In this document: positions 1-51,609 of the stretch, piece by piece
Layout of the letters: each line of letters begins with the position of its first letter
Numbering within the stretch: the first letter of the stretch is position 1
From: a candidate division WOR-3 bacterium
GTDB taxonomy: Bacteria; Hydrothermota; Tepidihabitantia; Tepidihabitantales; Tepidihabitantaceae
NCBI GenBank assembly: GCA_965649205.1
Contig: CBFGJV010000005.1
Coordinates: 1 to 64,000 of the forward strand
Reading direction: 5' to 3'
DNA length: 64,000 bases
Made by a program: the position numbers and the translations under genes
Notes under the pieces: model-generated
What the model saw: the letters and a program-made list of their open reading frames with translations, nothing else
Database searches by the model: none
Told to the model about the DNA's origin: nothing

Positions 1-669
1 AGAATTGCGGTAATCAGTCCACACTACGAGATAGTTGGTGCCGTCAAACGCCACCGCAGGGTACCCCTGGTTGTTTGTCGCGGTGGAGATGGCGATACCC
101 GCCGGGTCAAGCACTGCCCCAGTCTTGCTCACCCGCGCGCCGTAGATGTCGTACCCGGTCGTACCGGAGTTGCGGTAGTCGCGCCACACCACGAGGAAGT
201 TGGTGCCATCAAACGTCACTTCAGGGTTGACCTGCTCGTTCGCCGCGGTGCAGATGGCGATACCCGCCGAATCAAGCACTACCCCGGCCTTGCTGACCCG
301 CGCGCCGTAGATGTCATAGCCGATCGTATAGAAGTTGCGGCCTTCACTCCACACTACTAGATAGCTGGTGCCGTCAAACGCCACCGCAGGGGATGATTGA
401 TTACCATACGCCGGTCCATACACAACGCTGGTGTCAACCAGAAATTCGTTGGCATCAGGGATTTCATCCAGCCCTTCGGCAGCGTAGCGCTGCTCGGAAA
501 CCTTTCGTACCACTTCGTTTACATCGAACGGAACCGCAATGTCAGTACTGCTGCGCATTGTATTTGGCGCTACCGGGGCGGCCATACCGCTTGAGTGCTC
601 CAGTATGCCCGGCTGTCCGGAAACCAGAGCGCACAACAGTACCGTCGCGAACAAGATGCTCTTTTGCAT
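1..669 (-). CDS. Secreted repeat protein (5' part only, runs off the left edge); ~55-aa beta-propeller-like repeats
   Basis: Not in the ORF track because there is no stop in the window. AAGGAGG SD, then ATG at 669. Manual translation: MQKSILFATVLLCALVSGQ (signal peptide), then repeats PAVAFDGTxYLVVWxDxR...YDIYGARVSKxGxVLDxAGIAIxTA. Confidence 0.85.
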   Translation of the reverse strand, partial: MQKSILFATVLLCALVSGQPGILEHSSGMAAPVAPNTMRSSTDIAVPFDVNEVVRKVSEQRYAAEGLDEIPDANEFLVDTSVVYGPAYGNQSSPAVAFDGTSYLVVWSEGRNFYTIGYDIYGARVSKAGVVLDSAGIAICTAANEQVNPEVTFDGTNFLVVWRDYRNSGTTGYDIYGARVSKTGAVLDPAGIAISTATNNQGYPAVAFDGTNYLVVWTDYRNS

Positions 670-1039
670 TTTTCCTCCTTGCGGCCTTTGTTGCAGAGCC
701 GCATCTGCTTTTCCACCTGACGCCCCGTCACGGTTCCTGGCTTCTGTAATCTGGCCAGTGCTCCCTCCCCACGGACAACGGCCGACAGTATAATTTTATT
801 TTTTTTAGGAGGGATATTCTGTCAAGAAAAACAAAACATGGTGCTGCGTGGAAAATTTAGGAAATGTCTCATGCTGGTGTCGCACGGGGAAGATGTACAC
901 TCTGACAGCCCGGTCTCCCTCTGGCAAGGCCGAGACCGGTTTTCGTCAGTTTTATATTTTTATGCCGCGGGGAGGGAATTTCGTAAAAGTGTCTGCGACA
1001 GAGGGGGCGGTACGGTTGTAAGGGCAGCGGAGCAATGTT

Positions 1040-1370
1040 GTAAGTGAAGCTTTTTCGTATGGGGGTCGCTGGGGGGACTGCTGGGTGGGTGGTCTGGCGG
1101 GTTGTTCTGGGAGCAGAATACCGGGCGGTGAGGCGGGTGGTTTGGCGAGTAGTTAGCCGGGTCGGGGGCGGGGTCAGGGAGTAGGCTGGCTGGGGGGTGG
1201 TCTGCAGAGTTGGGTAGAGGGCCGGTTGGCAGGCAGGGGGGAGAATGGGAGGGAGAGTTGCCCTAGGGGAGGCTGGGTGAATGGCTTAGCGGGTCGCTTG
1301 GCGGGTGGCTGACTGGGCCGGTCTGTGGGTTGCCGGCCAGGCTGGTCAGGGAGCAGTTGAGGAAGCTGTC
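1040..1370 (+). repeat. Conserved 31-bp head plus 26 degenerate G-rich 12-mers (copy 1)
   Basis: Head GTAAGTGAAGCTTTTTCGTATGGGGGTCGCT (1040-1070). A 12-nt register runs from 1059 to 1370 without indels; consensus about NNNNRRRYNGNN. Confidence 0.85.
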
Positions 1371-1612
1371 TGGCCGCATAACGGTTGGCGCGGGTACGTC
1401 GGCAGGCAGGAGAGCCAAGTGTTTTTCGGCAGATACCGGCATGAGCCGATATCAAGAGTCTTAAAGGTGTGGGGTACTGACCAAGGTTGCGCCGCAGGTG
1501 GACAAGAGGATTTTCCCATTGCCGGCGCTGCGTGTATCATATGAGGCGTCCAAGTCCGAGGCAGGAGGTCACGATGTGCCCTTGCTGTCTTCCCCTTGGG
1601 CAAGACCGAGAC

Positions 1613-1782: not shown

Positions 1783-3048
1783 ATGACGCAGGAAGAACTC
1801 AAGCATAAGAAAATCAGTGAGTTGTATCAGATAGCGGAGCAGCTGGGAATTCCTGATGTGAGAGAGAAGCGCAAGCAGGGCGTAATTATGGCCATCATCA
1901 AGGCCGAAGCAAAGAAGCTGAAGGACCCCAGCGAGGGTGTAACCGTTTCTGGAGTGCTGGAGATTCTGGAAGAGGGCTTCGGCTTTCTGCGCTCGCCCGA
2001 CTATAGTGACCTTCCTTCGTCCGACGACATCTATATCTCTCCTTCTCAGATAAAGCGATTCGGACTTAAGACCGGCGATACCATCGTGGGTTCTGCCCGG
2101 CCGCCCAAGAACTCAGAACGGTATTTTGCCCTCCTGAAAATAGACACGGTGAACGGAGTCACGTTGGATGAGTTGAGGCAGCGGGTGCCCTTTGATGCGC
2201 TCACCCCGCTTTATCCTTCGGAACGCATCAAGTTGGAGGTGGAGTCGGAAAATGACCTGTCCAAGCGCGTGATTGACCTGTTCGTTCCCATTGGCAAAGG
2301 ACAACGTGCCCTCATAGTCTCGCCGCCCCGGGCGGGTAAGACCGTTCTGTTGCAGAAAATCGCCAATAGCATCACCAAGAATCATCCCGAAATTACCCTC
2401 ATAATCCTGCTGATAGACGAACGACCTGAGGAAGTGACCGATATGGAAAGGTCGGTCAACGCCGAGGTCATCAGTTCAACCTTTGACGAGGTTCCTGAGC
2501 GGCACGTGCAGGTGGCGAACATGGTGCTGGAGAAGGCCAAACGACTGGTAGAATTGCGGCACGATGTTGTCATCTTGCTCGACTCCATTACCCGGCTTTC
2601 GCGGGCGCACAATCTGGTGGTTCCGCATTCGGGCCGCACCCTTTCTGGCGGACTTGACTCCAACGCCCTCCAGAAGCCGAAGAAGTTTTTCGGAGCCGCA
2701 CGTAATGTGGAGGAAGGTGGATCGCTGACTATCATTGCCAGCGCTCTGGTGGAAACCGGCTCCCGTATGGACGAGGTGATATTCGAGGAGTTCAAAGGAA
2801 CCGGAAATATGGAGTTGGTTCTGGACCGCAAGCTGGCCGACCGTCGCATATTCCCGGCCATAGACCTGCAGCGCTCCGGTACCCGGAAGGAAGAGTTGCT
2901 GCTTTCCGAGTTCGAATTGAATCGCATTTGGGTCATGCGCAAACTGCTGGCCGAGTTGAATCCGGTGGAGATGATGGAGTTTGTACTTGACAAGATGCGT
3001 CTGACCCGCAACAATAAGGAGTTCTTAGAATCAATGAGTGAGAGCTAA
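1783..3048 (+). CDS. rho: Transcription termination factor Rho
   Basis: GFGFLR and [13 protein letters not shown]-binding motifs, PPRAGKT P-loop, [28 protein letters not shown]. Confidence 0.99.
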
Positions 3049-49030: not shown

Positions 49031-49636
49031 TTGTGGAAAGAAGTCTTTGGGTCGAAGGTTAGAGTTGCAGGCGTAGCTTTGCTGGCTGCTTGCAGTGTGT
49101 TTATCTCAGCCTGCGGTGGCCGTTCTGGCACCGGTTCGCTTCCTGAAGTTCCGCTACCTAAAACAGGCACAAACGTTATGACTCTTACCAGCCCGGCATT
49201 TGCTTTCGGCCAGACAATTCCGGTGCGCTACACCGGCGACGGTGACAATCTGTCACCTGAGCTAAACTGGACTGGGGCGCCGGAAAACACCCAGAGCTTT
49301 GCCCTTATCTGTTCTGACCCGGATGCTCCGTCTGGTACCTTTATTCACTGGGTCATTTATAACATTCCCGGTGCGATGCGCGCTTTACCCGCTGGCATGC
49401 CCAAAAATCCGGTTGTGCTGGACAGTGCCGAACAGGGATATAACAGTTTTGGCCGGCTAGGATATGATGGTCCGCAGCCGCCACCGGGCAAGCCGCACCG
49501 TTATATTTTCAAGCTGTACGCCCTGGATACGCGGATAAAAGCAAATCAGCGTGTGGTTGACGCCGAGTTTCTGCAGAAAAAGATGGACGGGCATGTACTT
49601 GCAACCGCAGAACTGATGGGGACTTATCAGCGCTGA
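49031..49636 (+). CDS. YbhB/YbcL (PEBP/RKIP-like) lipoprotein
   Basis: SP.L.W...DPDAP..TFIHWV...YDGPQPP..PHRYIF.LYALD; lipobox ISAC. Confidence 0.93.
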   Translation: MWKEVFGSKVRVAGVALLAACSVFISACGGRSGTGSLPEVPLPKTGTNVMTLTSPAFAFGQTIPVRYTGDGDNLSPELNWTGAPENTQSFALICSDPDAPSGTFIHWVIYNIPGAMRALPAGMPKNPVVLDSAEQGYNSFGRLGYDGPQPPPGKPHRYIFKLYALDTRIKANQRVVDAEFLQKKMDGHVLATAELMGTYQR

Positions 49637-49755: not shown

Positions 49756-50074
49756 GTAAGTGAAGTTTTTCCGTATGGGGGTCGCTCAGGGGGCTGCTCG
49801 GTAGGTGGTTGGGGGAGCGGTTCCGGGGGTAGGCTACTGGGCCGGGGGGTGGACCGGGAAGCCGGTCGGTGGGCAGGCAGTTCTCCAAGCCGCGGGGACG
49901 GCTGGTCAGATGGCCGGATGATAGGCAGTTCTCCCTCTTGGCTGGGGATAGGTTCGGTCAGGAGGTCGGCAGGCCGCTGACAGGGCTGGTGGGGAAGTCT
50001 ATTACCGAGCCGGTCGGTGAGGGGTTTACCGGGTTATTCAGGAAGTTGCCAGGGGGACGGATTGGAGAGCAGGT
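49756..50074 (+). repeat. Conserved 31-bp head plus ~25 degenerate G-rich 12-mers (copy 2)
   Basis: Head GTAAGTGAAGTTTTTCCGTATGGGGGTCGCT (29/31 identical to copy 1); same 12-nt register from 49775. Confidence 0.85.
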
Positions 50075-50133
50075 CGGCAGTCAGAATCCTGCTGATGTAG
50101 GTTAGGGAAACATAAGAGGTTACAAACTGAAGC

Positions 50134-51528
50134 TTAGCCAGCTACTTGGAGGTTGCCGAAACGGATTGCATAGGGGCCGCGGTAGGACTGATAGACTTGA
50201 GTTTCTTTGGAGTAACGGGCATCGGCCAGAGTCTCAAACCAGTTGCCCACCAGCAGGCCGCCTTTGAAAGGCACGGGTTTGCCGTTCTGGTACTTTTCGC
50301 CCAGCCTGATTTCTACGGCGAATTGGCCGGAGGTCTGATTTACCGAAAAGGAGGAGAACGCTCTGATTACCACGCAGTTATCTGAAACCAGTTCTGCCAT
50401 AGGGGTGCTGCCGGCGGGTATTACCGTTTCTCCCAGCTGGCCGGGCGCAGGAATGCCGGCGTCCAATAGTCCTAGATAGTGGTAATAGCGCCTCGCGCCT
50501 AGGAGTCCTTCGTAGCGGCCGTTCTTGACAACGGTTACCGGCCGGCAGGGAGTAGCGTCTGATTCGGCAAGCCGGGCACTGCGCAGACCGAAAGGAACCA
50601 GCGGGTCTGATACCAGATTCAAGGCTTCTCCCAGCAGGGGTTTCTCGCCCCAGACCGGTTTCCCTTTTTCATATTGACTGGCTTTTTCGTATACCATGCG
50701 AGCATTGGCGTGAAATGCCAGAGGTGTGTTCTGCAGAGAAAGGAAATCAGCAGCCGCTTCGCCGGCGAGCACTACCGGGCCCTGCCAACGAGAAGGAGGT
50801 GAAGCAAGAGCGATATTGCGGGCCGCACTGGCATACTCTGTCACTATAGTTGCCGGATTCAGGTCGGAAAACCGGCGGCAGGAGAGCCGGGCGGTATGTT
50901 CGCCTACCCGGTCTTCTGCCGGGCGGCCCAGGAAGCATATCTCTATGTCAATTCGGGTGACCGGATACACGAGGTTCAGACCAGTTGAGCTGAGTACTTG
51001 TACCCGAGTGCGTTGGATGAACGTTTCCAGGTTGGAGACCGTAACGTCTGGCTGAGGGGCAGTCGCAGCTACAATCTGGTCGTTGAATTTCTGGGCAAGG
51101 TTAAGAAGGGCTTTGTGGTCAAGTCCGGCGAGTTGGGGGTCGGCCAGTTCTACTTCGGGGTAGGATTCGTCCTTGCCTGGCAGGGGAAAGGGCTGGTTGC
51201 GTTGACTGCGAGCCGCAGCGACCAAGTTGTCTACTACTGTTTTGAGAGAGGTTTCCTCGTCAGAGATGAACTGGCCAGAGGCATCGCCCAGCCAAACTGA
51301 GCCATCTACCTCGAACCGGGAGTAGATGGTAACGCCCACTGTTTCCGCAGGAGAAGAGATAACTTCTCGGGGATGGGGATTGGCATGGGGCACAAAACGA
51401 CCTGATTCCACTGTGTATATCTTTGGCAGGCGGATGACGGTCATGGCGTCTGTCTCTCGGCTCGTGAGTATCCAGTCAGTGATGCCTTCAGCTTTTTCCA
51501 AATAGGCCTTTATGCGTTCCAGATTCAT
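50134..51528 (-). CDS. TldE/PmbA-family protein
   Basis: Adjacent to tldD; V...G.Y.GLL, SGQF, GGLLVGN; no HExxxH motif; AAGGAG SD. Confidence 0.8.
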   Translation of the reverse strand: MNLERIKAYLEKAEGITDWILTSRETDAMTVIRLPKIYTVESGRFVPHANPHPREVISSPAETVGVTIYSRFEVDGSVWLGDASGQFISDEETSLKTVVDNLVAAARSQRNQPFPLPGKDESYPEVELADPQLAGLDHKALLNLAQKFNDQIVAATAPQPDVTVSNLETFIQRTRVQVLSSTGLNLVYPVTRIDIEICFLGRPAEDRVGEHTARLSCRRFSDLNPATIVTEYASAARNIALASPPSRWQGPVVLAGEAAADFLSLQNTPLAFHANARMVYEKASQYEKGKPVWGEKPLLGEALNLVSDPLVPFGLRSARLAESDATPCRPVTVVKNGRYEGLLGARRYYHYLGLLDAGIPAPGQLGETVIPAGSTPMAELVSDNCVVIRAFSSFSVNQTSGQFAVEIRLGEKYQNGKPVPFKGGLLVGNWFETLADARYSKETQVYQSYRGPYAIRFGNLQVAG

Positions 51529-51609
51529 AGGTGTTCTCCTTCTATCTGCGCGGGGCCAGTCCAACAGGGTGGAAATGTCGCTTCCAACTTTCGTGTTGCC
51601 CGCATAGTT

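What the first reader, a model, noticed from the sequence alone, without database searches (positions are those of the whole stretch)
1040..1370. Dispersed element: conserved 31-bp head plus an indel-free array of ~25 degenerate G-rich 12-mers (second copy at 49756-50074)
Seen: two intergenic loci 48.7 kb apart, in the same orientation, share GTAAGTGAAG(C/T)TTTT(T/C)CGTATGGGGGTCGCT (29/31). Both continue in the same 12-nt phase for about 300 bp. In copy 1 (26 units from 1059), unit positions 5-7 are purines in 26/26, position 8 is a pyrimidine in 25/26 and position 10 is G in 25/26, while other positions vary widely (e.g. tggcgggtggct, tagcgggtcgct, gactgggccggt). No two units are identical, and stops interrupt the frames I translated. 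Inference: fixed period, similar length and a fixed head with hypervariable units do not fit a simple microsatellite, CRISPR, REP or IS. Options are a phased protein-binding array (nucleoid or segregation), a G-quadruplex/R-loop or Rho-loading (C-rich strand) element, an ncRNA, or the product of a repeat-adding or mutagenic process. On the minus strand the conserved bases are mostly C (NNC NRC YYN), loosely like adenine-directed diversification, but no RT is in the window.
Basis: partly seen in the sequence, partly recalled or inferred. Interest (0 to 1): 0.85.

Follow-up and report, generated by a model that had tools for sequence, protein, structure and literature searches.

The report
12-bp lattice for virus-coat-like proteins
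These two stretches are copies of a non-coding DNA strip of about 26 in-register 12-base units whose intact relatives sit right in front of bacterial genes predicted to have the DNA-wrapping coat fold of archaeal filamentous viruses, so the strip is likely a landing pad for those proteins, whose viral relatives cover exactly 12 bases per pair.

Summary
Head plus array occurs 7 times in this genome and at 10 further distinct loci elsewhere. It is non-coding, not DGR-like, and G4/rut features are not conserved. In 4 of 17 loci the head leads directly into genes whose family matches only Adnaviria capsid proteins (PDB profile hits 7 of 7; a family member's model matches SIRV2 at TM 0.80). That family is multi-copy in 64 of 65 other genomes of the order and in 0 of 206 outside it. 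12-bp arrays of unrelated sequence but similar length (median 26 units) lie upstream of 22 of 26 A-type genes (downstream 1 of 30) and 18 of 19 long XRE fusions, but 0 of 30 short XRE fusions. Viral dimers of this fold cover 12 bp (PMC5517147, PMC6105669). Best reading (0.55): a phased nucleation lattice for these dimers, likely gating the adjoining promoter; the two window copies are orphans. Binding is untested, and SIRV2's own genome has no such tract. The scan found this pairing before on other genomes (7 notes); I reached it before looking. I found it in no paper.

The parts
1059..1382 (-). Array copy 1: 27 in-register degenerate 12-bp units; the C-rich (minus) strand is the gene strand in intact relatives
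1040..1070 (-). Head of copy 1: G/C run plus conserved box at the gene-proximal end of the array; holds the right half of a spaced dyad seen beside other arrays
957..1039 (-). Segment shared with the C1, C20, C43 and C10 copies; there it runs into the ribosome-binding site and start of the A-type capsid-fold gene. Promoter role inferred from conservation; the gene itself is missing here
   Evidence: no sigma-70 consensus hit in the C43 copy
1383..1587 (.). Flank co-duplicated with the C1 copy; pieces recur on C20 and C30; not periodic
49775..50086 (-). Array copy 2: 26 in-register units; solo copy between convergent genes
49756..49786 (-). Head of copy 2
1..669 (-). Neighbour now downstream of copy 1's promoter segment: repeat-containing protein with paralogues on C12; no Pfam family over cut-off
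1783..3048 (+). Neighbour: transcription termination factor Rho, divergent from copy 1's gene strand
49031..49636 (+). Neighbour of copy 2: PBP-family (PF01161) protein
50134..51564 (-). Neighbour of copy 2: PmbA/TldD-family protein

Best explanation
The two stretches are orphan copies of a non-coding element, about 26 in-register 12-bp units plus a short conserved box, whose intact relatives lie directly in front of genes for small proteins predicted to have the capsid fold of archaeal filamentous viruses, and the array is likely a phased lattice on which dimers of those proteins, one per 12 bp, would nucleate a short nucleoprotein coil that likely gates the adjoining promoter. Shown: period, register, bounded length, non-coding status, position upstream of three classes of these genes, and homology of the proteins to Adnaviria capsid proteins. 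From papers: 12 bp of A-form DNA per viral dimer. Inferred: that the bacterial proteins dimerise, keep the 12-bp footprint, prefer the array, and act on transcription. On this reading the array works like a nucleosome-positioning sequence: spacing and a weak two-fold consensus are selected, the letters are free. Copies spread by duplication and rearrangement; some lose the genes (both window copies) and could still be bound in trans.
For: Type-1 head followed at once by an A-type gene in 4 of 17 distinct loci, by its 5' stump in 2 more, and by the promoter segment only in window copy 1. Profile A2 against PDB sequences: 7 of 7 hits are Adnaviria capsid proteins, E 4e-4 to 0.08. AF2 model of the C13 D-type paralogue (pLDDT 97): Foldseek ranks 1-8 are such proteins, SIRV2 TM 0.80 over 124 columns; VIA ranks 1-7, Z 13.0, rmsd 3.1, 120 aligned. 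Profile vs SIRV2 ORF134: 92% over 123 columns including the N-terminal helix; median pI 9.4. Arrays (lag-12 z>=5) upstream of A-type genes 22 of 26, downstream 1 of 30; long XRE fusions 18 of 19 vs 0 of 18; D-type loci 18 of 59 vs 0 of 59, concentrated in one stand-alone group (15 of 18) and in operons; own-genome background 15 of 1405. 57 arrays differ in consensus and skew (+0.55 to -0.38) but have median 26 units, IQR 22-27, max 31. Unit consensus is more two-fold symmetric than column-permuted controls (0.533 vs 0.453 +/- 0.018). No net indel in 300 bp of array in 6 of 6 pairs, against 1-base gaps in 84 bp of shared flank in 5 of 6. 12 bp per dimer: AFV1 and SIRV (PMC5517147), SFV1 (PMC6105669).
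Against: No binding, dimer or expression data. 10 of 17 type-1 loci, including window copy 2, have no capsid-fold gene detected behind the head. Short XRE fusions have the same fold yet 0 of 30 have an array at z>=5; 40 of 46 genes in the largest D clade have none. The SIRV2 genome has no 12-bp tract (best z 3.7), so the viruses do not need one. The A-type gene nearest the head was not folded itself and is less basic (median pI 8.3). Loci were picked by E-value, sets overlap, all come from one family, and kin are not independent. The C8 copy carries a 1-base shift between head and array. The symmetry null breaks dinucleotide neighbours and may overstate.
Confidence: 0.55

Rival explanations
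1. The array is a packaging or assembly-start signal of a domesticated or parasitic filamentous element (gene-transfer-agent or satellite type); the proteins build DNA-filled filaments and solo arrays are its scattered traces.
For: True capsid homologues, multi-paralogue operons and A-C fusions resembling heterodimeric capsomers; 2 to 16 or more copies per genome, with stumps and broken copies; 4 of 26 arrays listed lie within 300 bp of a tRNA gene.
Confidence: 0.17
2. The arrays are a by-product: coat-bound DNA suffers 12-bp duplications, so neutral 12-bp repeats grow where the proteins bind and then decay.
For: 12-bp indels are common in rudiviruses and lipothrixviruses (PMC4390879, one passage); some relatives have near-perfect tandem units, showing regrowth by duplication.
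Against: Length is bounded near 26 units across unrelated consensuses; register survives 50% divergence; no excess of 4-residue indels in 241 protein pairs.
Confidence: 0.1
3. The array is read by another factor (the XRE domain, the ECF-like sigma factor seen in some operons, or an unknown protein) and the match to 12 bp is chance.
For: XRE fusions and sigma-like genes belong to these loci; a spaced dyad box lies gene-proximal of 16 of 40 non-type-1 arrays against 4.8 in shuffles.
Against: A sequence-specific reader would not tolerate wholesale change of unit consensus between lineages; the one component common to all three array-linked gene classes is the capsid fold.
Confidence: 0.1
4. It acts as single-stranded nucleic acid: Rho-loading tract, G-quadruplex/R-loop element or non-coding RNA.
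For: Own-genome copies are C-rich on one strand; 4 of 7 hold a G4 motif; copies 2, C6 and C8 follow a gene end on the C-rich strand.
Against: G4 motif in 0 of 8 relatives; skew changes sign across arrays; folding z 0.36 and -1.27; no Rfam match except neighbouring tRNAs.
Confidence: 0.04
5. Decayed genes for tetrapeptide-repeat proteins.
For: One minus-strand frame is open in 5 of 15 copies; one plus-strand frame has fewer stops than shuffles (24 vs 39).
Against: Every frame is broken in some copies; pN/pS 0.72-0.88 in all six frames; no conserved start.
Confidence: 0.04

Closest known systems
Major capsid proteins of Adnaviria (SIRV2 3J9X, SSRV1 6WQ0, AFV1 3FBZ/3FBL/5W7G, SFV1 6D5F, SIFV 6WQ2; Pfam PF12193)
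   Same: Homologous sequence and predicted fold over the whole length, basic charge, paralogue pairs; viral footprint of 12 bp equals the array period.
   Different: Known only from archaeal viruses (PMC12282232, whole text read); here chromosomal, bacterial, multi-copy, fused to XRE domains, and paired with phased arrays that the SIRV2 genome lacks.
Nucleosome-positioning sequences and nucleation sites of nucleoid proteins (recalled, no call)
   Same: Degenerate periodic signal whose spacing matches a DNA-wrapping protein's repeat; placed at promoters.
   Different: Period 12 rather than about 10.5; length fixed near 26 units; different protein fold; predicted A-form wrap.
Rho utilisation sites (recalled; the reading of earlier scan notes e1-1123145/6)
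   Same: C-rich strand with roughly 12-base spacing in this genome.
   Different: C-richness is not conserved; arrays lie upstream of promoters, and phase is exact.
Minisatellites / VNTRs (recalled)
   Same: Head-to-tail 12-mers, in some relatives nearly perfect.
   Different: All units distinct here, length bounded, fixed flanking box and gene partner.

Membership tests
Adnaviria major capsid protein family (linked proteins) | SIRV2-type helical fold | tested here: met
   for D/C types; for the XRE C-terminal domain; A type by profile only
Adnaviria major capsid protein family (linked proteins) | Long basic N-terminal helix that wraps DNA | tested here: met
   predicted helix 16-55; aligned to SIRV2 N-terminus, median pI 9.4; weaker for A type
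Adnaviria major capsid protein family (linked proteins) | Homo- or heterodimer | not testable with these tools
Adnaviria major capsid protein family (linked proteins) | Wraps A-form DNA, 12 bp per dimer | not testable with these tools
   shown for viruses only
Realm Adnaviria (as a virus) | Archaeal host | tested here: not met
   bacterial genomes of one order; homologues named WOR-3
Realm Adnaviria (as a virus) | Linear 17-42 kb genome with terminal repeats and filamentous virion | tested here: inconclusive
   loci are 1-2 kb islets among cellular genes, but 5 of 10 own loci touch contig ends; virions untestable
Diversity-generating retroelement | DGR reverse transcriptase | tested here: not met
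   the one RT found reads by eye as an RT-Cas1 fusion
Diversity-generating retroelement | Differences confined to template adenines | tested here: not met
   all four bases differ in every ordered pair
CRISPR array | Identical repeats with unique spacers | tested here: not met
   26 of 26 and 25 of 25 units distinct, no spacers
Rho utilisation site | Conserved C-rich, G-poor transcript strand | tested here: not met
   skew +0.55 to -0.38 over 57 arrays; near 0 in 3 of 8 foreign type-1 copies
G-quadruplex element | Four G3 tracts with short loops, conserved | tested here: not met
   4 of 7 own copies, 0 of 8 relatives
Structured non-coding RNA | Rfam match or stable fold | tested here: not met
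   (copy 1 folded only)
Structured non-coding RNA | Transcript | not testable with these tools
   no RNA run listed
Tetrapeptide-repeat gene | Conserved open frame under codon selection | tested here: not met
MITE / IS / REP | Fixed ends with inverted repeats or target duplications | tested here: inconclusive
   shared ends vary between copy pairs; no dedicated end search, no empty site found

The most novel reading that the evidence does not exclude
One bacterial order has turned the Adnaviria capsid protein into a sequence-programmed chromatin system: 12-bp-phased strips about two superhelical turns long tell dimers where to start an A-form coat, switching promoters and perhaps shielding or exporting chromosomal DNA in filaments. 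It would be the first cellular, and first bacterial, use of this fold and a positioning code independent of histones.
Probability: 0.35. Interest if true: 0.95.

Novelty: categorically new. Interest (0 to 1): 0.82.

Why it matters
The SIRV2 fold defines a viral realm held to be archaea-only. A chromosomal family of it across a bacterial order, with regulator fusions and its own phased DNA sites, bears on whether this capsid came from a cellular DNA-binding protein or was captured by cells. It also gives a testable case of a positioning signal for A-form DNA wrapping: small soluble proteins, a 320-bp substrate and a sharp prediction (12-bp ladder, lost at 11 or 13).

Tried and rejected
Head pattern in genome contigs and viral contigs: 0 matches; 2 of 9 metagenome matches (L033, L035) had no array and were dropped as chance, and L029/L030/L034 were counted once. 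Rfam, RNA folding, G4, Rho, DGR, CRISPR and coding readings rejected as above. No RNA holder listed; two hot-spring DNA runs hold related pieces only, not used as evidence. SIRV2 genome scan: no 12-bp tract; no other viral genome scanned. Phage collection: no real homologue of the D protein. Genome-wide 4-residue indel excess: none. Empty-site search at the rho and TldD loci in 5 relatives: inconclusive. PF12193 in 5 out-of-order genomes: nothing rang anywhere, uninformative. The tree is the quick version only. Three papers were not held, among them the SIRV2 structure paper; supplements were not read. Replichore orientation not testable on 48 contigs.

Full report
Observation. Both heads and both arrays are as described. 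Autocorrelation peaks at lags 12, 24, 36, 48. In a genome-wide lag-12 scan that discounts codon periodicity, the seven head-bearing copies are among the eight strongest signals (z 10.5-14.1).

Copies. The head occurs 7 times in the 2.15-Mb genome; an eighth copy is cut by the end of C10. Among 272 genomes of the phylum it occurs in 3: own, G001 (3 copies) and G022 (2). A metagenome scan gave 9 stretches, 7 with an in-phase array (5 distinct) and 2 without. Complete type-1 arrays run 26-30 units, one 35 with a weak tail. Copy 1 is a recent paralogue of C1 and C20 (89-92%) and older of C43 and C8 (74-75%); copy 2 shares only the pattern. Names given to homologous proteins point to candidate division WOR-3; the window's genome itself is unnamed.

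Not a gene, not an RNA motif. Every frame has stops in some copies and pN/pS is 0.72-0.88 in all six. All four bases vary, and the one reverse transcriptase found reads as an RT-Cas1 fusion. Rfam finds only neighbouring tRNAs; copy 1 folds no better than shuffles. G4 motifs and C-richness vanish in relatives. What is kept is register: no net indel in 300 bp in 6 of 6 pairs, while 84 bp of shared flank has gaps in 5 of 6.

What lies behind the head. On the C-rich strand the C43 copy, G001:C56 and L027 continue through a conserved promoter-like segment into an operon of small genes (A, B, C and in L027 D); L031 has A up to its contig end. C1 and C20 keep the 5' stump of A; window copy 1 keeps the segment up to 957 and then joins another gene; the other 10 of 17 loci show none. 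These proteins form one family: 19 domain hits in 10 loci of this genome, 1416 clusters in the representative library, matches in 64 of 65 other genomes of the order and 0 of 206 elsewhere in the phylum. All 7 PDB hits of their profile are Adnaviria capsid proteins, and a confident model of the C13 D paralogue matches SIRV2 at TM 0.80 and SSRV1 at Z 13.0. The C-terminal domain of an XRE regulator family has the same fold (hhalign 95%; top 6 structures, Z 14.0); a longer XRE family carries two weaker copies (85% and 44%).

Why 12. In AFV1, SIRV and SFV1 each capsid dimer holds 12 bp of A-form DNA, with 9.3, 14.7 and 17.1 dimers per turn (PMC5517147 and PMC6105669, passages). I therefore tested, without using the head or this array's letters, whether 12-bp arrays lie before such genes. 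A-type genes: 22 of 26 loci with 450 bp or more upstream (19 within 700 bp), downstream 1 of 30. Long XRE fusions: 18 of 19 against 0 of 18. D-type best hits: 18 of 59 within 1 kb, 0 of 59 downstream, 0 of 53 at 1-2 kb; other periods at most 3 of 59; background 15 of 1405 own-genome ORFs. On a quick tree, 15 of 18 stand-alone D genes outside one 99%-supported clade have the array, while inside it only 6 of 46 do, all through operons (one long-branch row set aside, and two of the six assigned). Against: short XRE fusions 0 of 30, and no tract in SIRV2. These sets were chosen by E-value (30, 20 and 60 of several hundred matches), overlap in part, and come from one family.

What the arrays share. 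57 arrays have different unit consensuses and skews yet median 26 units, IQR 22-27, maximum 31. Aligned on the gene strand, 37 of them share a weak self-complementary consensus (CnARYnRYTnGn); similarity 0.439 vs 0.375 and symmetry 0.533 vs 0.453 in column-permuted controls. This suits a two-fold symmetric dimer. A spaced dyad with 17 free bases lies gene-proximal of 16 of 40 non-type-1 arrays (4.8 expected); the type-1 head holds its right half. Twenty-six to 29 units is near two SIRV2 turns or three AFV1 turns; this is arithmetic, not a test.

Mechanism. Most likely (0.55) the array positions capsid-fold dimers, one per unit, and nucleates a coil next to the promoter of their own genes; solo copies are duplicated remnants or remote sites. 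Everything after 'linked and numerically matched' is inference. Rivals: packaging signal (0.17), coat-made by-product (0.10; 12-bp indels are reported for these viruses, PMC4390879 passage), another reader (0.10), RNA-level role (0.04), dead gene (0.04).

Novelty. The 2025 ICTV profile (PMC12282232, whole text) lists only archaeal hosts; a 2026 paper still calls the realm archaea-specific (PMC13700489, passages); a WOR-3 genome survey never mentions capsids or repeats (PMC12542636, term search). Ten literature searches (listings only) showed no report of bacterial homologues or of these arrays; subscription journals are largely outside the library. Within this scan, seven unchecked notes on other genomes state the same pairing (my note predates them) and notes on this genome saw other arrays but read them as rut-like. 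They are not independent support. Added here: the tie of this head family to A-type operons, gene-class-resolved counts with controls, the negative cases, and the shared dyad consensus.

Noticed in passing
G000 C17:1-340, C16:1-300, C23 end, C14:17981-18500, C47:321-820, C11:25961-26420, C4:54461-54900, C40:7161-7580: Further 12-bp arrays without the type-1 head; several end in a short GC-rich palindrome, and the C17 one lies directly before a capsid-fold gene.
   Followed up: partly
G000 C1:37442, C2:40960, C2:74572, C3:68886, C5:79090, C13:29615, C13:68380, C14:50818, C33:10872: Second end motif with an 18-bp palindrome about 70 bp away, at two places before XRE genes; weak arrays.
   Followed up: partly
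L233:800-1200 and L235:3032-3409: The region upstream of rho also holds an array in G007 and a capsid-fold gene in G015: 3 of 6 genomes including the window's.
   Followed up: partly
L045:2692-5166 (G000 C43): The A-B-C operon abuts a CRISPR array with cas genes.
   Followed up: no
L089, L102, L108, L118: Some operons include a gene that looks like an ECF sigma factor between A and B (read by eye).
   Followed up: no
L030 (472-aa ORF downstream of the head): Basic protein of repeated helical units with no match to the capsid-fold profile.
   Followed up: no
L245:6340-7350 and L243:1780-2880: Two different 12-bp arrays back to back.
   Followed up: no
window 957-1587 and G000 C1:64712-65277: Near-identical copies whose outer flanks look exchanged: in G002 the gene that follows the C1 copy is the divergent neighbour of rho, suggesting a rearrangement through the duplicate.
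   Followed up: no
L247:464-2752 (G000 C22): Reverse transcriptase fused to what looks like Cas1.
   Followed up: no
L015, downstream of the head: Transposase-like gene with an internal stop, IS110-like by eye.
   Followed up: no
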